This document shows, piece by piece, positions 1,108 through 9,934 of a stretch of 64,000 bases of DNA. A model generated the notes under the pieces. The model was not told the DNA's origin and ran no database searches. It saw nothing but the letters and a program-made list of their open reading frames with translations. How positions within the stretch are numbered: position 1 is the stretch's first letter; every line of letters starts with the position of its first letter. The stretch lies in the NCBI GenBank assembly GCA_964365955.1, contig CAYISA010000005.1, positions 751 to 64,750 of the forward strand, written 5' to 3'. This DNA comes from an uncultured Candidatus Saccharibacteria bacterium. GTDB lineage: Bacteria > Patescibacteriota > Minisyncoccia > UBA6257 > GWB1-50-10. Made by a program: the position numbers and the translations under genes.

Positions 1108-1380
1108 ATGAAAATTTCCGATTTCGGGCATAATCCTTACGCGTGCAGCTTTCCGGATTGCAAAGCAAAGGGACCCGCGGACGAGATGTGGAACGTGAAA
1201 GGAAAACCCATAATCCTCTGCGGAGAACACGCATACAAAGTGCGTGAGCACGGATTCCATACGTATCGGCTGTCAAATACCTTGGAGTTTTTGGAAGAGC
1301 AGAAGCTCCGGGAAAACCACTTTTTTACACAACTGGAGGAGCTGGTCCGTCAGCCCCAAAAACAGCACCAAAAGAAGTAG
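1108..1380 (+). CDS. Hypothetical small Cys-containing protein (90 aa), possibly a zinc ribbon.
   Basis: The ORF has its own promoter, RBS and terminator. Cys pairs CSFPDC and LCGEH. No family recognised. Confidence 0.5.
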   Translation: MKISDFGHNPYACSFPDCKAKGPADEMWNVKGKPIILCGEHAYKVREHGFHTYRLSNTLEFLEEQKLRENHFFTQLEELVRQPQKQHQKK

Positions 1381-1731: not shown

Positions 1732-1770
1732 TATTTGTAAATCGTGAAAAGGACGCGTTATACTCTACTT

Positions 1771-2607
1771 ATGAATACAAATAGAATGGAGGATCAAATT
1801 TTAAATTCTCTTACAATCGACCAAGCATACAAACAAGCAATAAAAAAGATGCGCAGAGAGGCGATTAATCCGGAAACATTCCGCGATATTTATCACGAGG
1901 GCGTGGATAAGGATAACACCTATGTAAAAGCAATGGAAGATAAGTTTAAACAAGATTCCACTTCCGAAAAAGAGGAGGTGTTGAAACTTGCGACCGTGTT
2001 TGAGGGTATTATCCACGAAAACGCCGAGTTAAGCGATTGGCTGGGACAAAATGCGCAGACTTTCAAAACATCGCGGTTCGACGATATCGCGAACGGCGTT
2101 GACACCATCGTAGAGTTTGAAGAAAGTGAGACTACCGCATCGCATTTGGCGCTCGCGATTGATGTAACCTTCAGCAGCGATACCGAACGTAAACTCGCGG
2201 ACATTCGCGATAAAATCAAAAAGGGGGAACTCACGAAAATAAAATACTTCGCATCAGAGCACCTGGGGATGCGTGGAGAACTCGCAAAAGTGCCACGCGT
2301 TATCATCGGCGCGGAATCAAAAACCATCAAACAGCTCGCGGAATTATGGATAGAAGGGGACAAGAAAAAAGAACTCGGTGTACACCCTATCCAATTTCAA
2401 ATTCTTGAGGAAATTGTAGAACAACTCGAAACATTCCAGAACTTTGCGGAAAGAAACCATCAACCGGAATTGGCGGCGATTTTTGAGAAACGTCTTGCGT
2501 TCGTAAGTAAAATCCTTGAGGAAAAACGGATCATGCTCGACGACAACGGCGAGCGCGACAGCGTGTTTGAAGATATCGAACGCAATTTAAGAACGATGTT
2601 CGTCTGA
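1771..2607 (+). CDS. Hypothetical protein (~279 aa), probably leaderless.
   Basis: Long ORF. The GTG at 1744 given in the ORF track lies inside a TTGTAA-18 nt-TATACT promoter (1735-1764), so the ATG at 1771 (or 1786) is more plausible. No family recognised. Confidence 0.5.
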   Translation: MNTNRMEDQILNSLTIDQAYKQAIKKMRREAINPETFRDIYHEGVDKDNTYVKAMEDKFKQDSTSEKEEVLKLATVFEGIIHENAELSDWLGQNAQTFKTSRFDDIANGVDTIVEFEESETTASHLALAIDVTFSSDTERKLADIRDKIKKGELTKIKYFASEHLGMRGELAKVPRVIIGAESKTIKQLAELWIEGDKKKELGVHPIQFQILEEIVEQLETFQNFAERNHQPELAAIFEKRLAFVSKILEEKRIMLDDNGERDSVFEDIERNLRTMFV

Positions 2608-5600
2608 TTACTCCACTTTTCGTAGCGCGATCCACAAGGGCCATTCCTCGAATTTCGTCTCAAGTTCTACCGTGAATCGCTTTACACGTTTATACTCGAT
2701 TGCTTTTGCGTTTACTTCTGTCCCAATATTTTTGCGATTTTTTTCAATAAACGGGATAAGCTCTTTGCACTCGACATGGATTACAATCCTATTCTTCGGT
2801 TCCAGCTTCGCGTCCTGCCGCAGATCCTGCACCAAACGGATAAACTCGCGCACAAGTCCTTCTTCCTTTAGCGCTGGCGTTACACGAATGTCGAGCTCAA
2901 TCGGACGTTTGATGTCGTTATCCACGTAGGCATTTTTTACATTCACCTCTTCCGAGAGAAGCACCATCAGTTCTTTGTTTCCCCACAGATAGTTGTTCTC
3001 CGTTTTCACGCGCAGCATCTGAAGCGGCTGGCGCACTTTAATCGCCGCTTCGGCGCGCTTCGCAAGCGCCAAACTTGCGAACTCGCGGATCTCTGTCATG
3101 CCTTTAATCAGTTTTTCATTCGTCAGCGCTTTTTTCATTTTTGGCCAGTCCGTCAGATGGACCGAAAGCGTCTTGTTCCCCTCTGACACCAGCGATTTAT
3201 AAAGCGCCTCGGAAAAAAACGGCATAAAGGGCGCGAGTAACTGGCTTAACACATAAAGACAGTGTCCCAGCATTTTTGACGCCGCTTCATGGTCCGCCTG
3301 TGTTTCCGGTTTTTGAAGACGCCGTCGCGAGCGGCGAATATACCACCGGGAAAGATCTCCGGTAAATATTTCGATTGTTCTCCCAGCGGTTCCGGGGTTA
3401 TAAGCATCCATCGCTTTTGTGACACTCTTCGTTGTTTCCTCAAGGCGCGCCAAAATCCACCGGTCAAGAACGTGCTTCGGATTGCCTATAGTGAGCGGGA
3501 AATTGAATTTTTTGGCATAGGTTTCGTAAAAAATGAACGAATGATAAACCATCAGCACGAACTGGCGCAGGGTTTTTCCGAGTTCTGCTTCGTCGAATTT
3601 TTTTGGTTCGCCGGGCGGATTTACTGTAAACAGATACCACCGCACCGCGTCCGCTCCATACTTTGCGATCACCCCCCAAGCGTCTACCGCGTTCCCTTTC
3701 GATTTGGACATTTTCTGCCCGTTCTTATCAAGCACGTGTCCCAAACAGATAACATTTTTGTAAGGAGTTGTTTTATCTAAGAGGATGGACTCGGCAAGCA
3801 GGGTATAGAACCAACCGCGCGTTTGATCTACCGCTTCTGAAATATAATCAGCAGGAAAATCTATTTTTTCTTTTGCAAAAGGATAGTGCGCCTGTGCAAA
3901 CGGCATCGCGCCGGAATCAAACCATACGTCCGCCACTTCCGGAATGCGCGTCATGCGTTCGTGGCATTTTTCGCAAGGGAATGTTACGTCATCCACATAT
4001 GGGCGATGAGGGTCCGCGAAGTTCCAGCCGTTCCGCGGAAGCTTCAAAAATGGAACTTTGCGAAATTCCGTCGTCTCGATAAAATCATTACCACGCTTTT
4101 CTTTCTCCGTAATCGCCCGTTCTTCACCCCATCCGCTCATCACGGTCTGCATCATCCAGACGGGATACTCGTGACTCACAACCAAAATAGTTTTTCCTTC
4201 GTATTTTTTCTCGAGTGTTTCAAGACCTTCGTAAACGCGCTTCGCAAGATCGCGGAGTGATTCGCCTTTTGGCGTCCGTTTTGTAAATTTCTCCGCATAG
4301 GACGAAAAATACGCGTGATAGTCCTCACCCTTTTTTCCGTCAAAAATTCCTGTATTTATTTCGCGGAATTTTTTCTCGAAAATTATCTTTTTGATTCCCA
4401 GTTCGCTTGCGACAATTTCCGCCGTTTCGCGGGTGCGGCGAAAATCCGACGCTACGATGATATCAATATTTTCTTTTTTCAGTTTTTTTGCGGACCGTTC
4501 GGCAATAACGCGTCCTTTCAGGGTAAGGGGGTATACATTCCGCTTTGCAGGACTACTATTTATTTTTTTCATCAAGATATTTTGCGGTTCACCGTGCCGC
4601 ATTAAAATGTAGCGATTTTTAGCGCCTCCCTGCAATTGGCTTAATTCTTCATACCCACCTACCGCGCGCACTCCCCCACATTTTTTGCACTCCCAGAGCG
4701 GAAGCGGAGTGCCCCAGTAGCGTTCGCGCGAAATCGCCCAGTCCTTCACTTCGCGGAGCCACTCGCCAAACCGGCCCTCCTTCACGGATTCCGGAACCCA
4801 GCGGATTTTTTTGTTTTCCCGAAGCAATTCTTTGCGGAATTTGCTCATCGCGATAAACCAGGAGTCCCGCGCGTAATACAAAAGCGGTGTATCACACCGC
4901 CAGCAAAACGGATAGTCGTGCTTGTAAGGTTCCGTACGGAGCAAGAGCCCCTTTTTCTCCAGATCGTCCACAATCTTTTTTTCCGTCTCCTTGGCTTTAA
5001 CGTACATGCCTGCATATGCCGGAACGTCACTGGTGAATTTTCCTTGCAGGTCCACCGTGTGGTGCTGCGGCAGGCCAACCTCCTTTCCCAGATTGTAATC
5101 GTCTTCTCCGTACATCACTGCCGTGTGGACTACGCCCGTGCCATCTTCTGCCCCGACAAATTTTGCCGGATAGATTTTGTACGCCGCGCTTGATTTTTTA
5201 AACGCCTCAACGGAAAAAAGGGGTTCATAGGCGAGCCCAACCAGATCTTTTCCTTTTACGCTCGCCACAACGGTGTGTGGATCTTTCAAAACCGAGAGAC
5301 GATTCGTCGCAAGAATATAAATTTCTTTTTTCTTTCCTTCTCCCACGTTCACAACGGAATACTCGATATTCGCCCCCACCGCAAGCGCGACATTCCCCGG
5401 CAGTGTCCACGGCGTGGTCGTCCACGAAAGCACGTAGGTGGAAGCACCTGACCCCGCTTTTCTACCCACAGACTGCCCCTTCTTTAGCTTAAATTTGATG
5501 TATACGGAGGTTTCTTCCACTTCCCGGTATCCTAAGGCGATCTCGTGAGATGAAAGCGCCGTACCGCACCGGGTGCACCATGCCACCACTTTATGGCCTT

Positions 5601-6117
5601 TATAGAGGAGCCCGCGCTCCCAGACGCGCTTTAAGATCCACCAGAGCGTCTCGATATAGGAATTTTCATATGTAATGTAGGGGTGCCGCATATCGAGCCA
5701 GAATCCAATACGCTCGGTTAGGCGTTCCCACTCGTCTTTATAGGTCCAGACGGATTCTTTGCATTTTGCGTTGAATGCACCGATGCCGTATTTCTCGATA
5801 TCTTTTTTCGAGTTCAATCCCAGTTTTTTTTCCACCTCCAATTCCACCGGAAGTCCGTGCGTATCCCAGCCGCCTTTGCGTGAAACAAAATATCCCCGCA
5901 TGGTCCGATAGCGCGGGATCACGTCTTTGAATGCACGCGCCAATACGTGGTGGATACCCGGGCGGCCGTTTGCGGTGGGCGGCCCTTCATAAAAAACAAA
6001 CTTCTTTCCGTGAGCGCGTTGTTCAAGTGATTTTTCGAATATCTTATGTTCCTTCCAAAACTGAAGGATTTTTTCTTCTATTTCTGGAAGTGAGAATTTT
6101 TGAAGTTTTCTAAGCAT
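2608..6117 (-). CDS. ileS: Isoleucyl-tRNA synthetase with an inserted histidine-phosphatase-like domain.
   Basis: Class I aaRS motifs (PPTANGRPGIHHV, WCTRCGTALS, CWRC zinc knuckle, KMSKSKGN) are collinear with IleRS. An extra ~200 aa between WECKKCGG and HRPYVDD carries RHGE...SHE motifs. Confidence 0.92.
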   Translation of the reverse strand: MLRKLQKFSLPEIEEKILQFWKEHKIFEKSLEQRAHGKKFVFYEGPPTANGRPGIHHVLARAFKDVIPRYRTMRGYFVSRKGGWDTHGLPVELEVEKKLGLNSKKDIEKYGIGAFNAKCKESVWTYKDEWERLTERIGFWLDMRHPYITYENSYIETLWWILKRVWERGLLYKGHKVVAWCTRCGTALSSHEIALGYREVEETSVYIKFKLKKGQSVGRKAGSGASTYVLSWTTTPWTLPGNVALAVGANIEYSVVNVGEGKKKEIYILATNRLSVLKDPHTVVASVKGKDLVGLAYEPLFSVEAFKKSSAAYKIYPAKFVGAEDGTGVVHTAVMYGEDDYNLGKEVGLPQHHTVDLQGKFTSDVPAYAGMYVKAKETEKKIVDDLEKKGLLLRTEPYKHDYPFCWRCDTPLLYYARDSWFIAMSKFRKELLRENKKIRWVPESVKEGRFGEWLREVKDWAISRERYWGTPLPLWECKKCGGVRAVGGYEELSQLQGGAKNRYILMRHGEPQNILMKKINSSPAKRNVYPLTLKGRVIAERSAKKLKKENIDIIVASDFRRTRETAEIVASELGIKKIIFEKKFREINTGIFDGKKGEDYHAYFSSYAEKFTKRTPKGESLRDLAKRVYEGLETLEKKYEGKTILVVSHEYPVWMMQTVMSGWGEERAITEKEKRGNDFIETTEFRKVPFLKLPRNGWNFADPHRPYVDDVTFPCEKCHERMTRIPEVADVWFDSGAMPFAQAHYPFAKEKIDFPADYISEAVDQTRGWFYTLLAESILLDKTTPYKNVICLGHVLDKNGQKMSKSKGNAVDAWGVIAKYGADAVRWYLFTVNPPGEPKKFDEAELGKTLRQFVLMVYHSFIFYETYAKKFNFPLTIGNPKHVLDRWILARLEETTKSVTKAMDAYNPGTAGRTIEIFTGDLSRWYIRRSRRRLQKPETQADHEAASKMLGHCLYVLSQLLAPFMPFFSEALYKSLVSEGNKTLSVHLTDWPKMKKALTNEKLIKGMTEIREFASLALAKRAEAAIKVRQPLQMLRVKTENNYLWGNKELMVLLSEEVNVKNAYVDNDIKRPIELDIRVTPALKEEGLVREFIRLVQDLRQDAKLEPKNRIVIHVECKELIPFIEKNRKNIGTEVNAKAIEYKRVKRFTVELETKFEEWPLWIALRKVE

Positions 6118-6163: not shown

Positions 6164-6598
6164 TTGTATAATAGAGTTATGGAAACTCACCCATCTATCC
6201 GCAACGTAAACGAAGAGCATCGCCAGAAACTTTCGCGGCTGGATAAATTTGCGCTCTGGATCACGTGTCACGTGGGCACTACTGGATTTTTCCTTCTGAT
6301 TGCCTTCTGGACAGCGCTCTGGCTTCTGTGGAATACGTTCGCCTCACATGAATTGCGTTTTGATCCGTTTCCGGCATTCGCGCTCTGGCTTTTTATCTCG
6401 AATGTCATACAGATTTCCATTCTCCCTCTTATTATGATCGGGCAGAATCTTGAATCGCGCCATGCGGAACTGCGCGCGCAGGCGGACTATGAGGTGAACA
6501 TCAAGGCGGAACAAGAAGTGAAGGTGATAATGGAACACTTGGAGCGTCACGACAAAATGCTCCGTGAGATACTTCAAAAAACGGAGAAGCAAAGCTAA
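6164..6598 (+). CDS. DUF1003-like small membrane protein.
   Basis: Two hydrophobic helices and a C-terminal coiled-coil region, typical of the DUF1003 architecture. Confidence 0.55.
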   Translation: MYNRVMETHPSIRNVNEEHRQKLSRLDKFALWITCHVGTTGFFLLIAFWTALWLLWNTFASHELRFDPFPAFALWLFISNVIQISILPLIMIGQNLESRHAELRAQADYEVNIKAEQEVKVIMEHLERHDKMLREILQKTEKQS

Positions 6599-8263
6599 CT
6601 ACATCTTTTCGGGCGCGGAGATTCCTAGCACCCGGAACAAGTTTTCAAATACTTGGATGGTGGCGCATACCAACCCCAACCGCGCCTGCGCTAGTTTTTC
6701 TTCTTCTCCTGCCACGCGTTCACGCTCGTAAAATATCTGGAATGCCCGCGCTAATTTTATGGCGTAGCGCGGAATACGATGCGCTTGGATGTCATTCGCC
6801 GTGTCCGCAACGATTTCGGGAAACTCCGCGAGCGCAAGCATAAGCCGCATGTCTTCCTCCGTGTGGAGCAAATTCCAATCCGGCCTTCTCTTTATTTCTA
6901 CCGCCTTCTCTTTAATTCCGCGCGCGCGAACATAGGCGTACTGCACGTAAAAAACGGGATTTTTGGATGAGTGTTCTTTCGCAAGTCCCAGATCAAAATC
7001 CATATGCGTTTCGGGTGCGATCATCAAGAAAAAGAACCGTGCCACATCTGCCCCCACATCGTTCACTAGTTCTTCGAATGTTATGAACTCGCCTTTCCGC
7101 TTCGACATCCTTGCTTCTTCTCCGTTTTTTATGAGTCGTACCGCCTGCGTAATCAATACGCGCGAATTCGCAAGCCCCAGAAGTTTTGCCGCCGCTTGGA
7201 TACGCGCTACATAGCCATAATGATCGGGCCCTAAAATATTAATCTTTCCCGTAAAACCGCGATCCTTGGTTTCCAGATAATGGCCGGCGTCCGCCAGAAA
7301 ATAGGTCGGCTCTTTTTCGCTCGTAACAAGGACCCGATCTTTATCGTCTCCATGCTCCGATGTTTTAAGCCACACCGCGCCGTCGCGCTCATATGCGGCA
7401 CCGGCTTTCTTGAACGCCGCAAGCGTTTTTTCGACGAATCCTTTAGCCCGAATATCGTTTTTTTCCGACGTATACCGATCAAACCGAATCCCGGACTTCT
7501 TCTCGATCGTCGTTTTGATCATCCCCAGAAAATCTTGCGCGGCCACCTCTCCCACCGCCTCGGGATTGTTTTTGTTTTCCGAAACGAATTTTTTATGCCC
7601 CGCACTCCACTCCGCGATGTAGGCGCCTTTATAGAACTCGTCTTCCTCGGGAGTATGTCCTTGCGACGCAATGATGGATTTTCCTAAAATAAGCACCTGC
7701 CGACCCATATCGTTTACATAATATTCCCGCTCGACTTCTATTCCAGAAAACGCGAGTGTGTTTGCGATCACGTCGCCCAAAAATCCGCCGCGTCCGTTTG
7801 CGAGCGTAAGGGGCCCCGTCGGGTTCGCGGAGATGAACTCCACCTGAATTTTTTCTTTTGTTTTTTTCCCCGCTCCGTAATTCTTTTTTTCTTTCAGAAT
7901 CACTTCAAGTTCCTTATAAAATGCGTCGGGTGCAAGCCAAATGTTTATAAATCCAGGCGCTACTGCTTCGGCTTTTGCTATTAATTTAGAAGCTTTGTTC
8001 TTTATTTTTTTTACAATATCTTCCGCAATCAAAAGAGGTGGCTGCTTACGGATTTTGGAGAACGAAAACGCAACGTTGGTGCTATAATGTCCGCGGTTTT
8101 CTCCGCTTGCGGTTGGTTCCGAAACCGCAATCTTAAAAGGAGTCGGTCCTTCAACCGCCTCTTCTAAGACCTTATGAATTTCCTCGCGTAGCATAATTCC
8201 ATTTAACACCAAATCATTCTCCTTTTCCATTGCCGCTTTATGGTACGCTACAAGAGATGCCAC
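6599..8263 (-). CDS. argS: Arginyl-tRNA synthetase.
   Basis: SANPTGPLTLANGRGG (HIGH region equivalent) and a DALR anticodon-binding C-terminus. The start may instead be at 8230. Confidence 0.9.
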   Translation of the reverse strand: MASLVAYHKAAMEKENDLVLNGIMLREEIHKVLEEAVEGPTPFKIAVSEPTASGENRGHYSTNVAFSFSKIRKQPPLLIAEDIVKKIKNKASKLIAKAEAVAPGFINIWLAPDAFYKELEVILKEKKNYGAGKKTKEKIQVEFISANPTGPLTLANGRGGFLGDVIANTLAFSGIEVEREYYVNDMGRQVLILGKSIIASQGHTPEEDEFYKGAYIAEWSAGHKKFVSENKNNPEAVGEVAAQDFLGMIKTTIEKKSGIRFDRYTSEKNDIRAKGFVEKTLAAFKKAGAAYERDGAVWLKTSEHGDDKDRVLVTSEKEPTYFLADAGHYLETKDRGFTGKINILGPDHYGYVARIQAAAKLLGLANSRVLITQAVRLIKNGEEARMSKRKGEFITFEELVNDVGADVARFFFLMIAPETHMDFDLGLAKEHSSKNPVFYVQYAYVRARGIKEKAVEIKRRPDWNLLHTEEDMRLMLALAEFPEIVADTANDIQAHRIPRYAIKLARAFQIFYERERVAGEEEKLAQARLGLVCATIQVFENLFRVLGISAPEKM

Positions 8264-8703
8264 CCATTGCCGTCAACAAAAACGCTACCTTCGATTACGA
8301 GATCGCGGAAAAATTCAGCGCGGGCGTGGAACTCACGGGACACGAAGCAAAGTCCGCAAAACGCGGACGGTTTGACCTCTCGGGTGCGCGTGTCAATCTG
8401 CGCGGAGGCGAAGCGTGGCTTGTAGGAACCTCGATTCCTTCTTTCCAACCCGGGAATACCCCTGCGGAGTACGACGTAACGCGCTCCCGCAAGCTTCTTC
8501 TCAAAAAAGATGAGCTTCTGTACTTGGACGGCAAGCTGAAGTCTGGATTGACACTGGTTCCTCTTTGTGCCTATACTAATCGCGGCTTCTTGAAGATTGA
8601 GCTGGGACTCGGTCGCATGCGCAAAAAATACGATAAACGCGAAGCGATAAAAAAACGCGACATGGAGCGCGACCTGCGACGTCTGAAACCGAACGAACAT
8701 TAA
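8257..8703 (+). CDS. smpB: SsrA-binding protein SmpB.
   Basis: IAVNKNATFDYEI...LTGHEAKS...RKLLLKKDEL...GLTLVPL...KREAIKKRD matches the SmpB family. Start taken at the second Met (MPPIAVNK). Confidence 0.85.
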   Translation: MPPIAVNKNATFDYEIAEKFSAGVELTGHEAKSAKRGRFDLSGARVNLRGGEAWLVGTSIPSFQPGNTPAEYDVTRSRKLLLKKDELLYLDGKLKSGLTLVPLCAYTNRGFLKIELGLGRMRKKYDKREAIKKRDMERDLRRLKPNEH

Positions 8704-8714
8704 GAAACGCATAT

Positions 8715-9053
8715 GGGGATGCTGGGCTTTGACAGGGTGCGGAATTGTAAACTTGCAAGCCGAGCCGAACGTCTCGTAAATCCGTTCAAACAACAAAACT
8801 GCCAACAAAACGGCGGCTCCTGCATTCGCTTTCGCGTAATGTAGGGGACCCCCGACCATTTAGCGTCGGGGCATCGGCCCCTCACGCCTTCTAAGGGATC
8901 GCCGGTGTTATAAGAAGGCCCGCGCACGCGAACTTGTTTCGTAGGTCGCGCGCGTTAAACCAAACGAAACAAACTTGTTTCTTTTGAGACTAAGCTTGTA
9001 GAGAGTTCATGAGGATCCACCTTGGACGTCGGTTCAACTCCGACCATCTCCAC
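8715..9053 (+). ncRNA. ssrA: tmRNA (ssrA).
   Basis: 5' GGGGAUGCUGGGCUUUGACAGGG matches the tmRNA 5' consensus. 3' T-arm GUCGGUUCAACUCCGAC then CAUCUCC-A closes a 7-bp acceptor stem with a G3:U wobble (Ala identity). Internal tag frame ...ANKTAAPAFAFA ends at TAA 8837-8839. It lies immediately downstream of smpB. Confidence 0.8.
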
Positions 9054-9091
9054 AATATAAAAACGCCTTTTTTAAGGGCGTTTTATATATT

Positions 9092-9934
9092 TCATTGCCT
9101 TTCGAATTTGTAATAACCGCAATTAAAACAGAAAGGGGACTCGTCGATGGTCAGCGCATCAGTGCCGCACATCTTCATTTTTCCATACAAATCGTACTCG
9201 CCTTCCTGTCGAATCAGAACAATAAGAAGTGTATCTTTTACCGCAGGCGGGAGGGATTCCCTTAAAATCCGATAGGTTCCGCTCCGAAAGAGCGTGTCAC
9301 TCCGAAAACGAAAAAAAATCCCCCGACTTTCGAAGGTCCACGTTTCTCTATAACCGACCATTGCGGGCGATGTCGTTCCATCGAACGGATTGTATGACTC
9401 CGCCCATTCCCAAGATCCATGGAGCGAACGTTTCGCTTGTGCCATGGAAGGAGTTGGCTTGATTCTCCCGTACACCGAGTATCCCACATCCGAAGAAAAA
9501 TAAGGATTTAAAACCATGGTGTCTTGACATGGAAATTGAACCTCGAATTTTGTTTCCCATATCCAGCCGGAAATTCTGCCATAGAACTCTATCATCTGTA
9601 CGGGATAAAAAGATGCGAACGGCGTCCGACCCAAGGAAACGCGGAAGTGGCCTTCTCCCCAAAGGGTGTCGTTTATATACACCGCAAATGTTGAATCAGG
9701 TTTAAACCAAAATGTTCGCGTATATCCCGCTTTCTCCGGAGTCCATCTTCCACCCATTCCTCCGTTTGATTCTGTCCAATACCATCGTCCGACAATTCCA
9801 TGTGGATCGTCAATAAAAACAGGCGGGGCATTGGGAGATATCTGCACGATATCTTCCTTACAACCCAAGAAATGAAACTGGGCCAAAAAGACCGCCATGA
9901 GCAAAAAAATCCACCATGCTGACCTTGCATTCAT
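9092..9934 (-). CDS. Hypothetical lipoprotein (signal peptide plus lipobox FLGC).
   Basis: N-terminal hydrophobic signal followed by L-x-G-C. Trp/Tyr-rich; no family recognised. Confidence 0.55.
   Translation of the reverse strand: MNARSAWWIFLLMAVFLAQFHFLGCKEDIVQISPNAPPVFIDDPHGIVGRWYWTESNGGMGGRWTPEKAGYTRTFWFKPDSTFAVYINDTLWGEGHFRVSLGRTPFASFYPVQMIEFYGRISGWIWETKFEVQFPCQDTMVLNPYFSSDVGYSVYGRIKPTPSMAQAKRSLHGSWEWAESYNPFDGTTSPAMVGYRETWTFESRGIFFRFRSDTLFRSGTYRILRESLPPAVKDTLLIVLIRQEGEYDLYGKMKMCGTDALTIDESPFCFNCGYYKFERQ

What the first reader, a model, noticed from the sequence alone, without database searches (positions are those of the whole stretch)
4018..4620. Isoleucyl-tRNA synthetase carries an inserted ~200-aa histidine-phosphatase (PGAM-like) domain
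Seen in sequence: IleRS motifs run collinearly through WECKKCGG (about aa 480). Then come about 200 extra residues, beginning NRYILMRHGEP and containing ...TRETAE... and ...VVSHEYPV.... These are the RHG and second catalytic His of branch-1 histidine phosphatases (phosphoglycerate mutase superfamily). The canonical sequence then resumes at HRPYVDD...CEKCHE...KMSKS. Established knowledge: standard IleRS has only a short segment here. Inference: a domain-fusion aaRS. The phosphatase could be an active editing or moonlighting module, or an inactive structural insertion.
Basis: partly seen in the sequence, partly recalled or inferred. Interest (0 to 1): 0.7.

Follow-up and report, generated by a model that had tools for sequence, protein, structure and literature searches.

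The report
Phosphatase domain nested inside IleRS
The isoleucyl-tRNA synthetase of this groundwater Patescibacteria genome really carries a complete, apparently active histidine-phosphatase enzyme inside its catalytic domain, and hundreds of related species keep the same pairing either as this insertion or as a separate gene directly upstream of ileS, which ties an unknown phosphatase function to isoleucine charging.

Summary
Confirmed. The ORF at 2608-6117 (-) is a 1169-aa type-2 IleRS (TIGR00392, 896 bits). About 208 residues (aa 494-701) replace an 11-residue loop of Thermus IleRS, between the two Cys pairs of a Zn knuckle. The insert matches His_Phos_1 (E 2.8e-30) and models as a PhoE/PspA-like fold (pLDDT 95). 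R507, H508, R561 and H649 are invariant and E586 nearly so. HIGH (here GIHH), KMSKS and the editing motifs are intact.

It is not a chimera. The identical protein occurs on 6 contigs, and all 120 closest homologues have the insertion. At least 309 species-level genomes encode the domain family. Of the 80 best loci, 70 carry it in frame at the same site. Eight encode it as a separate gene directly upstream of an insert-less ileS, usually overlapping it, and one has no ileS nearby. Fused and split forms interleave on the IleRS tree.

A second CPR group (Gracilibacteria/Peregrinibacteria) has His_Phos at three different IleRS sites, in one to three (possibly four) copies. Some also carry GNAT, P-loop kinase-like, DUF559 or HAD domains.

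The domain is most likely an active phosphomonoesterase working with IleRS. Its substrate is unknown. I found no published description.

The parts
2608..6117 (-). ileS: 1169-aa type-2 isoleucyl-tRNA synthetase that hosts the insertion
   Evidence: ORF. TIGR00392 ileS scores 896 bits (cut-off 621.4). The best PDB relatives by sequence are 1ILE and P. megaterium IleRS2. The full-length AF2 model has pLDDT 90.9 and pTM 0.83. It superposes on IleRS2 structures with target-normalised TM 0.79-0.89.
4639..6117 (-). IleRS N-terminal part (aa 1-493): first half of the Rossmann fold, CP1 editing domain, WAISRERYWG motif and the first Cys pair
   Evidence: Aligns with Tth IleRS 4-477. The editing residues T233-T235, W237, H331 and D340 are invariant in 76 homologues.
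5947..5958 (-). Class-I signature in the swapped form G-I-H-H (aa 54-57) instead of HxGH
   Evidence: Sequence. G54 and H56 are at least 90% conserved and H57 is invariant. GXHH is the IleRS2 variant that confers mupirocin hyper-resistance (PMC10485003).
4678..4689 (-). First Cys pair of the Zn knuckle (C477-K-K-C480), equivalent to Tth C461/C464
   Evidence: C477 is invariant and C480 at least 90% conserved.
4015..4638 (-). Whole insertion (aa 494-701, 208 aa): short N-linker, histidine-phosphatase domain, and a return linker with the conserved P694-R695 motif
   Evidence: This is the gap in the alignment to 1ILE. The length between the Cys pairs is 227-247 aa in all 120 homologues. pLDDT in the junction blocks is 93-94.
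4123..4608 (-). His_Phos_1 (PF00300) core, aa 504-665
   Evidence: Pfam E 2.8e-30. The AF2 model of the insert has pLDDT 95.1 and pTM 0.91. The top Foldseek hits are PspA, GpgP, HFP, PhoE and CobC. A profile search of PDB sequences gives PhoE at E 2.3e-27.
4591..4599 (-). R507-H508-G509: phosphate-binding Arg and the nucleophilic His that would carry the phospho-enzyme intermediate
   Evidence: R507 and H508 are 100% conserved and G509 97% in 120 homologues. They align with the RHG of PhoE.
4435..4437 (-). R561: second phosphate-binding Arg, in the motif SDxxRTxETAE
   Evidence: 100% conserved. Aligns with the GRALETAE motif of PhoE.
4360..4362 (-). E586: the general acid/base position, in the motif RLREInxG
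   Evidence: 99% conserved in fused homologues. It is Asp in some separately encoded relatives. Aligns with the LREIHLG motif of PhoE.
4171..4173 (-). H649: second catalytic His, in the motif VVSHE
   Evidence: 100% conserved. Aligns with the VTHG motif of PhoE.
3964..3975 (-). Second Cys pair of the Zn knuckle (C715-E-K-C718), equivalent to Tth C502/C504
   Evidence: Both Cys are invariant.
2608..4014 (-). IleRS C-terminal part (aa 702-1169): HRPYVD, DVWFDSG, KMSKS, the anticodon-binding domain and the type-2 C-terminal domains (DUF5915)
   Evidence: Aligns with Tth 489-820. Pfam finds Anticodon_1 and DUF5915.
3700..3714 (-). KMSKS loop (aa 802-806)
   Evidence: Invariant. pLDDT dips to 66 here, as expected for a mobile loop.
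6599..8263 (-). argS, the syntenic upstream neighbour. In split-type genomes the separate phosphatase gene lies between argS and ileS.
   Evidence: Pfam domains. The order smpB-argS-hisphos-ileS-recO is seen in L001 and L004. The window has smpB/tmRNA-argS-(DUF1003 on the opposite strand)-ileS.

Best explanation
This is a genuine bifunctional enzyme. A canonical type-2 IleRS, with intact synthetic and editing sites, carries a complete PhoE/PspA-like branch-1 histidine phosphatase. The phosphatase sits in the surface loop of the Zn knuckle, between the WxISRxRxWG and HRPYVD/DVWFDSG segments of the Rossmann fold.

Shown: the fold, the insertion site, the conservation of the catalytic residues, the predicted rigid docking, and an evolutionarily persistent physical link to IleRS. 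That link takes the form either of an in-frame insertion or of a gene directly upstream of ileS, usually overlapping it.

Inferred: the domain is catalytically active. H508 would attack a phosphomonoester to form a phospho-histidine intermediate. R507, R561 and H649 would hold the phosphate, and E586 would act as the acid/base. It works as a roughly 1:1 partner of IleRS, on something met at IleRS rather than in general metabolism.

My specific guess (about 30%) rests on two observations. The domain has a PhoE-like helical cap, which is typical of small-molecule phosphatases. IleRS in a sister lineage has also acquired GNAT, P-loop kinase-like and HAD phosphatase domains. From these I guess that the domain removes a phosphoryl group from a small ligand that would otherwise interfere with Ile-tRNA synthesis. 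That ligand could be a phosphorylated inhibitor or antimetabolite, or a reaction product such as AMP or PPi. The substrate itself is not established.
For: Domain identity and site.

Fold: the insert model has pLDDT 95.1. The nearest solved structures are all small-molecule phosphatases: PspA 4ij6, GpgP 6s2q, HFP 9mmh, PhoE 1h2e and CobC 6e4b. The profile matches PhoE at E 2.3e-27 with all motifs aligned.

Selection: R507, H508, R561 and H649 are 100% conserved and E586 99% in 120 homologues. Overall, the insert is only 46% identical to the query at the median, against 61% for the IleRS core. Insert length is constant at 227-247 aa.

Docking: the full-length model has pTM 0.83, and pLDDT is 93-94 across both junctions.

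Intact host: HIGH (as GIHH), KMSKS, the editing residues and both Zn sites are conserved. The body superposes on IleRS2 structures.

Link to IleRS: all 120 closest IleRS homologues carry PF00300. At least 309 species-representative genomes encode a relative of the domain. Of the best 80 loci, 70 are in-frame insertions at the same site. Eight have a separate gene directly upstream of an insert-less ileS, one has a gap of about 1.4 kb, and one has no ileS nearby. In 9 of 11 split loci the stop and start lie within -11 to +4 nt of each other. Synteny with argS is kept.

Recurrence: Gracilibacteria/Peregrinibacteria IleRS carry His_Phos at three different sites, in 1-3 copies. One protein has a HAD phosphatase instead.
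Against: No substrate is identified. The domain reaches no curated NCBIfam cut-off for any characterised subfamily (dPGM, CobC, PspA, GpmB).

I could not read model coordinates, so the distance and orientation of H508 relative to the synthetic site, the KMSKS loop or the tRNA 3' end are unknown.

The domain works from at least three insertion sites and as a free protein. This argues against a mechanism that needs one precise geometry, and it is also compatible with mere co-expression.

No phosphorylated IleRS inhibitor is known to me. Branch-1 histidine phosphatases normally act on monoesters, not on adenylate-type diesters.

The accessory domains in the sister lineage (GNAT, kinase-like, DUF559, an IS200-like domain) could simply mean that IleRS tolerates insertions.
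Confidence: 0.7

Rival explanations
1. The phosphatase acts on a macromolecule held by IleRS. One version is removal of a 2'/3'-phosphate from a damaged tRNA-Ile 3' end, as end-healing before charging. The other is dephosphorylation of IleRS itself, for example a Ser of the KMSKS loop phosphorylated by a HipA-like kinase. That would make it a built-in repair or anti-toxin module.
For: The link is specific to IleRS and very tight. The insertion lies in the same half of the Rossmann fold as KMSKS. Some Gracilibacteria/Peregrinibacteria IleRS combine His_Phos with an AAA_33/AAA_18 P-loop kinase-like domain. From my own knowledge, that pairing recalls polynucleotide kinase-phosphatase. The separately encoded forms are markedly basic, with median pI 9.75 and about +7.6 net charge per 100 aa, against +0.35 for their IleRS cores. 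Also from my own knowledge, PGAM5, Sts-1 and SixA are protein phosphatases of this superfamily, and HipA-type kinases target the KMSKS Ser of GltX and TrpS.
Against: The domain keeps a PhoE-like cap of about 30 residues (helices 597-603 and 607-612). Its closest relatives are all small-molecule enzymes. The inserted forms are not basic on average, with median pI 6.5. I know of no branch-1 histidine phosphatase that acts on RNA ends. Working from three different insertion sites is hard to reconcile with reaching one specific loop or the A76 pocket.
Confidence: 0.2
2. The domain is a housekeeping metabolic phosphatase with no mechanistic link to aminoacylation, for example a phosphoserine, sugar-phosphate or nucleotide phosphatase. 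In this reading it rides on ileS for expression, in genomes that are highly streamlined and prone to fusion.
For: The nearest characterised relatives are metabolic or broad-specificity phosphatases. CPR IleRS also tolerates unrelated inserts: GNAT, DUF559, an alpha/beta hydrolase and an IS200-like Y1_Tnp domain. Copy number varies from 1 to at least 3, with four in one partial protein. One family member has no ileS within 5 kb (L058). A tandem-double relative, P0374, is not next to ileS.
Against: 79 of 80 sampled genomes keep the gene inside or next to ileS, whether in fused or split form. Fused and split forms alternate among close relatives without the link being lost. The domain was inserted into IleRS, rather than another protein, at three separate sites in a second lineage, and one protein carries a HAD phosphatase in its place. 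The predicted docking is rigid. Random hitch-hiking would not be this specific to one host gene.
Confidence: 0.2
3. The domain is a non-catalytic structural or ligand-sensing module. A former enzyme would have been kept as a scaffold, a tRNA-binding surface, or an allosteric sensor of a phospho-metabolite that tunes IleRS activity.
For: This part of the Rossmann fold hosts idiosyncratic structural insertions in class Ia synthetases (own knowledge: the LeuRS leucine-specific domain). Docking is predicted to be rigid, and the return linker has a conserved P694-R695 motif.
Against: Every catalytic residue is invariant or nearly so across sequences that are otherwise only about 46% identical. Pseudo-enzymes normally lose such residues. 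A sensor that binds a phospho-ligand would, however, keep the phosphate pocket, so sensing is not excluded.
Confidence: 0.07
4. Artefact: an assembly chimera or a mis-joined contig placed a phosphatase gene inside ileS.
For: The window comes from a metagenome-assembled genome. GC content is about 5 points lower over the insert (0.456-0.47) than over flanking ileS (0.50-0.52).
Against: The identical 1169-aa protein is on record from NCBI, ENA and Logan and was read on 6 contigs, including a 71-kb contig whose name indicates 22x coverage. All 120 nearest homologues, at 53-77% identity, have the same in-frame insertion. So do 70 of 80 species-level genomes. The reading frame is continuous, the insert ends exactly at conserved IleRS residues, and no flanking repeats are present.
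Confidence: 0.01

Closest known systems
PhoE/YhfR broad-specificity phosphatase of Geobacillus stearothermophilus (PDB 1EBB/1H2E) and the related short branch-1 phosphatases: PspA phosphoserine phosphatase 4IJ5/4IJ6, CobC alpha-ribazole phosphatase, GpgP, and HFP 9MMH
   Same: Same fold and size, about 190 aa. The motifs RHG, (S)xxxRxxxTA, LREIxxG, GE and xxSH/THG all align. The helical cap is similar, and the domain lacks the longer dPGM-type insertion.
   Different: Those are free-standing proteins (chains of about 200-235 residues). This one is nested in, or encoded directly upstream of, IleRS. It has family-specific motifs: N-x-Y before RHG, a SWPEK loop, and SD before the second Arg. It reaches none of the curated cut-offs for PspA, CobC, GpmB or dPGM. 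Identity to the solved proteins is only 18-24%.
Type-2 isoleucyl-tRNA synthetase (IleRS2): T. thermophilus 1ILE, Priestia megaterium 8C8U/8C8V, and the GXHH hyper-resistant variants
   Same: TIGR00392 scores above its cut-off. The protein is collinear over the whole length outside the insert. It keeps the two Zn sites, the CP1 editing motifs, KMSKS, and the type-2 C-terminal domains. The GIHH signature matches the natural GXHH class described in PMC10485003.
   Different: An extra catalytic domain of 208 aa sits in the Zn-knuckle loop, where Thermus has 11 residues. No solved IleRS has anything there.
Bifunctional RNase H/acid phosphatase (NCBIfam PRK07238, the Rv2228c type)
   Same: It is another nucleic-acid enzyme fused to a PhoE/CobC-like histidine phosphatase. 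It is also the best-scoring NCBIfam phosphatase model for the insert (76.8 bits) and for the separately encoded form (93.9 bits).
   Different: There the fusion is end to end, not nested. The scores are far below the 326-bit cut-off. The partner enzyme is different. To my knowledge the role of the phosphatase half is also unsettled there.
Nested domains of class Ia synthetases (the CP1 editing domain; the connective peptides CP2/CP3; the INS insertion of IleRS2)
   Same: A folded domain is inserted into a loop of the host without disrupting it. The connective-peptide architecture of IleRS is described in PMC11685878 and in bioRxiv 10.64898/2026.02.03.703510.
   Different: Those insertions serve tRNA handling or editing and are ancient. 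This one is an unrelated phosphoryl-transfer enzyme, restricted to CPR lineages, and able to exist as a separate gene. Neither paper mentions a phosphatase.
Enzymes that protect an aaRS from adenylate-mimic antibiotics (MccH HIT phosphoramidase; MccE/RimL acetyltransferases)
   Same: This is only a functional analogy for the favoured guess. These small enzymes destroy or modify a ligand that would block a synthetase (PMC7157772). The domain set seen in CPR IleRS (phosphatase, GNAT, kinase-like, hydrolase) resembles a set of ligand-modifying enzymes.
   Different: The enzyme families are different and are not fused to the target. No phosphorylated IleRS inhibitor is known. Nothing here tests this analogy.

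Membership tests
Histidine phosphatase superfamily, branch 1 (Pfam PF00300 His_Phos_1) | Sequence score above the curated Pfam gathering threshold | tested here: met
   105.9 bits against a cut-off of 21.7, E 2.8e-30, aa 504-665.
Histidine phosphatase superfamily, branch 1 (Pfam PF00300 His_Phos_1) | N-terminal RHG motif with the nucleophilic His | tested here: met
   R507-H508-G509 are present. R and H are 100% conserved in 120 homologues.
Histidine phosphatase superfamily, branch 1 (Pfam PF00300 His_Phos_1) | Second Arg, acid/base Glu and second His completing the phosphate pocket | tested here: met
   R561 is 100% conserved, E586 99% (Asp in some split forms) and H649 100%. They align with the corresponding PhoE motifs.
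Histidine phosphatase superfamily, branch 1 (Pfam PF00300 His_Phos_1) | Alpha/beta fold of the PGM/PhoE type | tested here: met
   AF2 pLDDT 95.1. Foldseek probability is 1.00 and query-normalised TM 0.70-0.78 to PspA, GpgP, PhoE and CobC.
Histidine phosphatase superfamily, branch 1 (Pfam PF00300 His_Phos_1) | Phosphatase or mutase activity through a phospho-histidine intermediate | not testable with these tools
   This needs an enzyme assay and an H508A control.
Cofactor-dependent phosphoglycerate mutase (dPGM; NCBIfam NF038349, PRK01295, TIGR01258) | Score above the curated equivalog cut-off | tested here: not met
   NF038349 scores 68 bits against 225. PRK01295 scores 26.3 against 316. The best solved matches are phosphatases, not mutases.
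PspA phosphoserine phosphatase / CobC alpha-ribazole phosphatase / GpmB (NCBIfam equivalogs) | Score above the curated equivalog cut-off | tested here: not met
   PspA scores 63.5 against 350, CobC 65 against 162.9, and GpmB 62.4 against 261. The same holds for the separately encoded form P0015.
Isoleucine--tRNA ligase (TIGR00392 ileS) | Score above the equivalog cut-off and better than the ValRS/LeuRS models | tested here: met
   896 bits against a cut-off of 621.4. valS scores 426 (cut-off 612) and leuS under 200.
Isoleucine--tRNA ligase (TIGR00392 ileS) | Class-I signature motifs (HIGH-type and KMSKS) and CP1 editing residues | tested here: met
   GIHH (the swapped GXHH form) at 54-57. KMSKS at 802-806 is invariant. 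T233-T235, W237, H331 and D340 are invariant.
Isoleucine--tRNA ligase (TIGR00392 ileS) | Aminoacylation of tRNA-Ile | not testable with these tools
   Inferred from motif conservation only. I did not check whether a second ileS exists in the genome, because only 64 kb are available.
Type-2 IleRS (IleRS2) with the GXHH signature | Type-2 C-terminal organisation (no C-terminal Zn-binding domain) and closest similarity to IleRS2 structures | tested here: met
   DUF5915/ARD-type C-terminus. The best structural matches are P. megaterium IleRS2 and T. thermophilus and yeast IleRS, with target-normalised TM 0.79-0.89. IleRS1 structures score lower.
Type-2 IleRS (IleRS2) with the GXHH signature | Mupirocin (hyper-)resistance | not testable with these tools
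   The motif is present. The phenotype is known only for other IleRS2 enzymes (PMC10485003).
NCBIfam NF040702 'isoleucine--tRNA ligase, N-acetyltransferase domain-containing' | Score above the curated cut-off (1999 bits) | tested here: not met
   324.5 bits for the window protein. A GNAT-bearing Gracilibacteria IleRS, P0410, reaches only 245 bits. That model describes another family.
Known anti-phage defence proteins (PADLOC-DB) | Any model match | tested here: not met
   No hit for the insert, for the separately encoded form, or for a GNAT/His_Phos IleRS.

The most novel reading that the evidence does not exclude
In CPR bacteria, IleRS may serve as a docking platform for a changeable set of small-molecule or RNA-modifying enzymes. 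The set includes histidine phosphatase in one to at least three copies, HAD phosphatase, GNAT acetyltransferase and P-loop kinase-like domains. These would act at the synthetase on an IleRS-specific threat or substrate. Candidates are phosphorylated or adenylate-mimic inhibitors made by neighbouring microbes, or damaged or toxin-modified tRNA-Ile. Under this reading, several features are signs of an arms race: repeated switching between fused and split forms, changes in copy number and insertion site, faster evolution of the insert than of the core, and the GXHH antibiotic-resistance signature. It would be a new principle: resistance or repair enzymes built into the drug target itself.
Probability: 0.2. 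Interest if true: 0.9.

Novelty: new variant of a known kind. Interest (0 to 1): 0.72.

Why it matters
Aminoacyl-tRNA synthetases are among the most conserved enzymes. Accessory catalytic domains inside their Rossmann fold are rare, the editing domain being the classic case. Here an unrelated and apparently active phosphoryl-transfer enzyme is kept with IleRS across hundreds of uncultivated species. It occurs as an insertion, as an abutting or overlapping upstream gene, in tandem copies, and at three different insertion points.

Such a persistent and IleRS-specific pairing predicts a biochemical step coupled to isoleucine charging that has not been described. Candidates are ligand clearance, inhibitor resistance, tRNA or enzyme repair, and metabolic sensing. 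The step would occur in organisms whose translation machinery is already known to be unusual.

The prediction is directly testable with recombinant protein. The split-form pairs provide a natural two-protein version for binding and kinetic experiments. The finding also bears on annotation: NCBI labels this protein only as 'class I tRNA ligase family protein'. Finally, it is relevant to IleRS as an antibiotic target, because the host enzyme carries the GXHH mupirocin hyper-resistance signature.

Tried and rejected
- **Locus search with the 20-sequence alignment A1.** It was too diverse for the search for related loci. A 9-sequence alignment, A2, worked.
- **The afdb50 library.** It was unavailable, so I could not list AlphaFold DB entries with the same architecture.
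- **Model coordinates.** They are not exposed, so I could not measure how the phosphatase pocket faces the IleRS active site.
- **Assembly chimera or recent mobile insertion.** Rejected. No flanking direct or inverted repeats of note were found. The identical protein appears in independent assemblies. The insertion is old and widespread.
- **Conversion between fused and split forms by recombination within ileS.** Not supported. The split L071 and the fused L052 are sisters with 100% bootstrap in both the N-terminal and the C-terminal halves.
- **Domain-only phylogeny.** With 180 columns it is too poorly resolved to decide whether the separately encoded domains share one origin. A plot of domain identity against core identity is suggestive only.
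- **Net charge as a sign of RNA binding.** Ambiguous. Separately encoded forms are basic, while inserted forms are neutral on average.
- **A replacement for the editing domain.** Rejected, because the CP1 motifs are intact.
- **A dPGM providing glycolytic mutase activity.** Not supported by model scores or by the nearest structures.
- **A defence-system component.** No PADLOC match.
- **NCBIfam 'ileS_w_GNAT' as the known family for the GNAT-bearing relatives.** The scores are far below its cut-off.
- **Literature.** I searched IleRS or tRNA synthetase combined with histidine phosphatase, phosphoglycerate mutase, His_Phos_1, CPR, Patescibacteria, Parcubacteria and Gracilibacteria. None returned a description of this architecture. 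Two recent IleRS evolution and structure papers do not mention it.


Full report
**1.

The minus-strand ORF 2608..6117 encodes 1169 aa. Pfam splits the class-I synthetase domain (tRNA-synt_1, best stretch aa 16-493, E 1.4e-118) around a His_Phos_1 match at aa 504-665 (E 2.8e-30, 105.9 bits, cut-off 21.7). Anticodon_1 and DUF5915 follow. NCBIfam identifies the host as isoleucine--tRNA ligase: TIGR00392 scores 896 bits against a cut-off of 621.

In the alignment with T. thermophilus IleRS (1ILE), query 4-493 pairs with Tth 4-477 and query 702-1025 with Tth 489-820. So 208 residues (aa 494-701; window 4015-4638) occupy the place of 11.

**2. Where the insert sits**

The insert lies between two Cys pairs, C477/C480 (WECKKCGG) and C715/C718 (PCEKCHE). 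These align with Tth C461/C464 and C502/C504. From my memory of the 1ILE paper, those four Cys form the second zinc site of Thermus IleRS. The host segment lies between the WAISRERYWGTPLP motif and HRPYVD...DVWFDSG, in the second half of the Rossmann fold. IleRS papers call the insertions of this fold the CP core, CP1 (editing), CP2 and CP3 (PMC11685878). That this knuckle is CP3 is my inference.

Insert-less relatives and the two outgroups have a short loop exactly here. All fused proteins break at the same two conserved positions.

**3. What the insert is**

Modelled alone, the insert gives pLDDT 95.1 and pTM 0.91. Its best Foldseek matches in the PDB are short phosphatases of branch 1 of the histidine phosphatase superfamily:
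- Hydrogenobacter PspA phosphoserine phosphatase (4ij6/4ij5, E 1e-13, TM 0.75-0.78)
- mycobacterial GpgP
- the riboflavin-pathway phosphatase 9mmh
- PhoE/YhfR (1h2e/1ebb)
- CobC

A profile of the family finds PhoE at E 2.3e-27, with RHG, RxxETAE, LREIxxG, GE and xxTHG all in register. None of the curated NCBIfam models for dPGM, PspA, CobC or GpmB reaches its cut-off. So this is an unclassified subfamily of the PhoE-like group, not a phosphoglycerate mutase.

In 120 full-length homologues, R507, H508, R561 and H649 are invariant and E586 is 99% conserved. G509, L531-T532, G535, S557-D558, G590, G618-E619 and R627 are also conserved. Overall, however, the insert is only 46% identical to the query at the median, against 61% for the IleRS core. 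Fast divergence with a frozen catalytic set points to selection for catalysis.

**4. The host enzyme is intact**

Among 76 fused homologues the following are conserved:
- KMSKS (802-806)
- the editing residues T233-T235, W237, H331 and D340
- both zinc sites
- the HIGH-type signature

The full-length model has pLDDT 90.9 and pTM 0.83. It scores 93-94 in the ten-residue blocks that span both junctions. The only weak blocks are 741-750 (58) and the KMSKS loop (66). The body superposes on IleRS2 structures with target-normalised TM 0.79-0.89, and no solved IleRS has a domain at this site. The phosphatase is therefore predicted to be a rigidly docked extra lobe on a normal type-2 IleRS. It does not replace the editing domain.

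**5. Not an artefact**

The identical protein is on record from NCBI (MEK7465517.1, 'class I tRNA ligase family protein', Patescibacteria group bacterium), ENA and Logan. It was read on 6 contigs, one a 71-kb groundwater contig whose name indicates 22x coverage. All 120 nearest homologues (53-77% identity, 1140-1373 aa) carry PF00300 together with PF00133. The insert borders show only short, low-complexity repeats. GC content is about 5 points lower over the insert, which is unremarkable for an old insertion.

**6. The same enzyme also exists as a separate gene next to ileS**

The closest free-standing relatives of the insert are proteins of 184-195 aa from Nealsonbacteria, Portnoybacteria and an unnamed bacterium. 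Each is encoded immediately upstream of an insert-less ileS of 934-951 aa. In L001 and L004 the order is smpB-argS-phosphatase-ileS-recO, whereas L002 and L003 show the phosphatase-ileS-recO part without argS upstream. The window has smpB/tmRNA-argS-(DUF1003 on the opposite strand)-ileS. These free proteins share the family-specific motifs: N-x-Y before RHG, SWPEK, and SDxxRTxxTAEI.

I classified the best 80 loci:

| Arrangement | Loci |
|---|---|
| In-frame insertion at the same site (one has a frameshift) | 70 |
| Separate gene directly upstream of ileS | 8 |
| Separate gene about 1.4 kb upstream | 1 |
| No ileS within 5 kb | 1 |

In 9 of 11 split loci the phosphatase stop and the ileS start lie within -11 to +4 nt of each other. 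Three of these have ATGA overlaps, which suggests translational coupling.

An exhaustive profile search counts 544 cluster representatives (50% identity) at E <= 1e-30. Both forms are common among the best 150.

**7. Fused and split forms interleave**

I built a neighbour-joining tree on 877 IleRS core columns, with the insert removed and Thermus and Priestia IleRS2 as outgroups. The split-type enzymes are never monophyletic (0 of 100 bootstraps). L071 (split) is sister to L052 (fused) with 100% support and 72% core identity. L081 (fused) groups with L063 and L055 (split) at 99%. Four other split forms make a separate clade at 100%.

The L071/L052 pairing holds in both halves of the protein, so simple recombination within the gene does not explain it. 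At least three transitions between the two arrangements are implied.

Caveats apply. These are distance trees, the sampling is biased towards relatives of the query, and lateral transfer is possible. The direction of change is not resolved. The domain tree is too short to help.

**8. A wider pattern**

Some IleRS carry two tandem copies at the same site (P0282, 1468 aa). One partial protein has four copies (P0241).

A more distant IleRS lineage (32-38% identity, canonical HxGH) is named by NCBI as Gracilibacteria, Peregrinibacteria and Peribacteria. It also carries His_Phos_1 in 108 of the 120 best hits. I mapped the domains against the landmarks WxISRxRxWG, WFDSG and KMSKS. Site A is the same Zn knuckle as in the window. 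Site B lies between WFDSG and KMSKS, matching the low-confidence loop 741-750 of the window protein. Site C lies about 70 residues after KMSKS. The counts in 123 proteins are:

| His_Phos position(s) | Proteins |
|---|---|
| Site A only | 41 |
| Site C only | 44 |
| Site B only | 5 |
| Sites B and C | 8 |
| Sites A, B and C | 2 |
| None | 12 |

The remaining 11 are other combinations or could not be placed.

By my reading of the precomputed Pfam lists, the other domains in this lineage are:
- GNAT acetyltransferase, in about sixteen proteins
- an AAA_33/AAA_18 P-loop kinase-like domain, in about five
- DUF559, in about five
- an alpha/beta hydrolase, in one
- an IS200-like Y1_Tnp segment, in one
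- a HAD phosphatase at site B instead of a histidine phosphatase, in one (P0457)

JGI had already named one such protein 'isoleucyl-tRNA synthetase/phosphohistidine phosphatase SixA/...GNAT'. All 18 long multi-domain proteins I scanned with Pfam were class-I synthetase fusions with IleRS-type C-terminal domains where complete. The three checked with NCBIfam (P0393, P0282, P0410) were ileS.

**9. How it most likely works**

*Shown:* an intact PhoE-like active site; a fixed insertion point in this lineage; predicted rigid docking; and a link to IleRS that survives gene fission or fusion and recurs independently.

*Inferred:* H508 forms a phospho-enzyme on a phosphomonoester. R507, R561 and H649 bind the phosphate and E586 protonates the leaving group, as in PhoE or dPGM (established chemistry of the superfamily). 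The enzyme acts about 1:1 with IleRS.

*Nature of the substrate:* the domain keeps a helical cap of about 30 residues (helices 597-603 and 607-612), and its nearest relatives are small-molecule enzymes. I therefore favour a small ligand over a polymer. The association is specific to IleRS. It tolerates several geometries. It co-occurs with acetyltransferase, kinase-like and HAD phosphatase domains. The host also bears the GXHH signature linked to mupirocin hyper-resistance (PMC10485003).

Putting these together, my leading guess is clearance or modification of a ligand that interferes with Ile-tRNA synthesis. That could be a phosphorylated inhibitor or antimetabolite, or a product. This is by analogy with enzymes that protect synthetases from adenylate mimics (PMC7157772).

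I give this specific guess about 30%. Action on tRNA-Ile ends or on phosphorylated IleRS gets about 20%. An unrelated housekeeping phosphatase co-expressed with ileS gets about 20%. A non-catalytic or sensing role gets about 7%. The rest is 'other'. The 0.7 confidence I give the best explanation applies to the core claim: a real domain, catalytically competent, and functionally tied to IleRS.

**10. Comparison with what is known, and novelty**

The domain is a member of PF00300 by score, motifs and fold. It is not a member of any characterised subfamily that I could test. The host is a member of the ileS equivalog and of the type-2 group.

The combination, a phosphoryl-transfer enzyme nested in the Rossmann fold of a synthetase and interchangeable with an adjacent upstream gene, was not found in any paper I could search. 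It is also absent from a 2026 preprint that catalogued the domain architectures of 96,219 IleRS sequences, and from the GXHH paper. The proteins themselves are in public databases under generic names.

I therefore rate it a new variant of a known kind: an aaRS with an accessory domain. The function is unknown, but the comparative signal is unusually strong.

Noticed in passing
window 5947-5958 (-), aa 54-57 of IleRS: The class-I signature is G-I-H-H (GXHH) instead of HxGH. G54 and H56 are at least 90% conserved and H57 is invariant in the fused Paceibacteria-type homologues. By contrast, 122 of the 123 Gracilibacteria/Peregrinibacteria-type IleRS examined have canonical HxGH, and the motif was not found in the remaining one. 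GXHH in IleRS2 confers mupirocin hyper-resistance (PMC10485003).
   Followed up: partly
P0393/P0301 (locus L090:8001-12260) and 123 relatives: A second CPR lineage (Gracilibacteria, Peregrinibacteria, Peribacteria) has His_Phos_1 domains at three different IleRS sites: the Zn knuckle, between WFDSG and KMSKS, and about 70 aa after KMSKS. Up to three copies occur in one protein.
   Followed up: partly
P0397, P0410, P0458, P0479, P0412, P0457, P0447: IleRS of that lineage also carries nested GNAT acetyltransferase, AAA_33/AAA_18 P-loop kinase-like, DUF559 endonuclease-like and alpha/beta-hydrolase domains. P0479 additionally has an IS200-like Y1_Tnp segment at aa 346-470. P0457 has a HAD phosphatase where others have the histidine phosphatase.
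   Followed up: partly
P0282 (1468 aa), P0241 (partial, 1161 aa): Tandem duplication of the inserted phosphatase is seen. P0282 has two copies at the query's site, and P0241 has four consecutive His_Phos_1 domains after the IleRS N-terminal half. All copies keep RHG.
   Followed up: partly
L087:2081-4890 and L088:2009-4818: A free-standing protein with two tandem His_Phos_1 domains (P0293) is followed by a further 109-aa His_Phos_1 ORF. A class-I TrpRS/TyrRS-type gene (tRNA-synt_1b) then starts about 165 nt downstream. This is a possible second aaRS association.
   Followed up: no
L026 (fused IleRS): In L026, a fused IleRS on the deepest-branching clade of the tree, all four Zn-knuckle cysteines are lost (WLPADDDSS... 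/ ...LVDDAG) while the phosphatase insert is kept. In that protein the inserted domain may have taken over the structural role of the zinc. The other members of its clade were not inspected.
   Followed up: no
L001-L004, L036, L039, L053, L055, L063 (separately encoded phosphatases): The separately encoded phosphatases are strongly basic, with median pI 9.75 and net charge up to +24. Inserted versions have median pI 6.5, and the partner IleRS cores are near neutral. This may reflect electrostatic docking or RNA binding.
   Followed up: partly
window 8230-8703 (+) and 8715-9055 (+): smpB is followed directly by the tmRNA gene (Rfam 134.8 bits). ARAGORN predicts the tag peptide ANKTAAPAFAFA. So smpB, ssrA, argS, ileS and trpS, which serve translation or ribosome rescue, lie within about 9 kb.
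   Followed up: no
window 6164-6598 (+): A DUF1003 membrane-protein gene on the opposite strand fills the argS-ileS gap, where split-type genomes have the phosphatase gene.
   Followed up: no
window 1108-1380 (+), 1744-2607 (+) and 9092-9934 (-): ORFs of 90, 287 and 280 aa next to ileS and smpB have no Pfam match. The 287-aa ORF ends at 2607, directly abutting the ileS stop codon on the opposite strand.
   Followed up: no
record titles of L009-L084: Many ENA MAGs carrying this Paceibacteria-type IleRS are labelled 'uncultured Candidatus Saccharibacteria', and one (L076) 'Gammaproteobacteria'. These labels look generic or mis-binned and should not be read as taxonomic breadth. NCBI names the window protein only 'class I tRNA ligase family protein'.
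   Followed up: no
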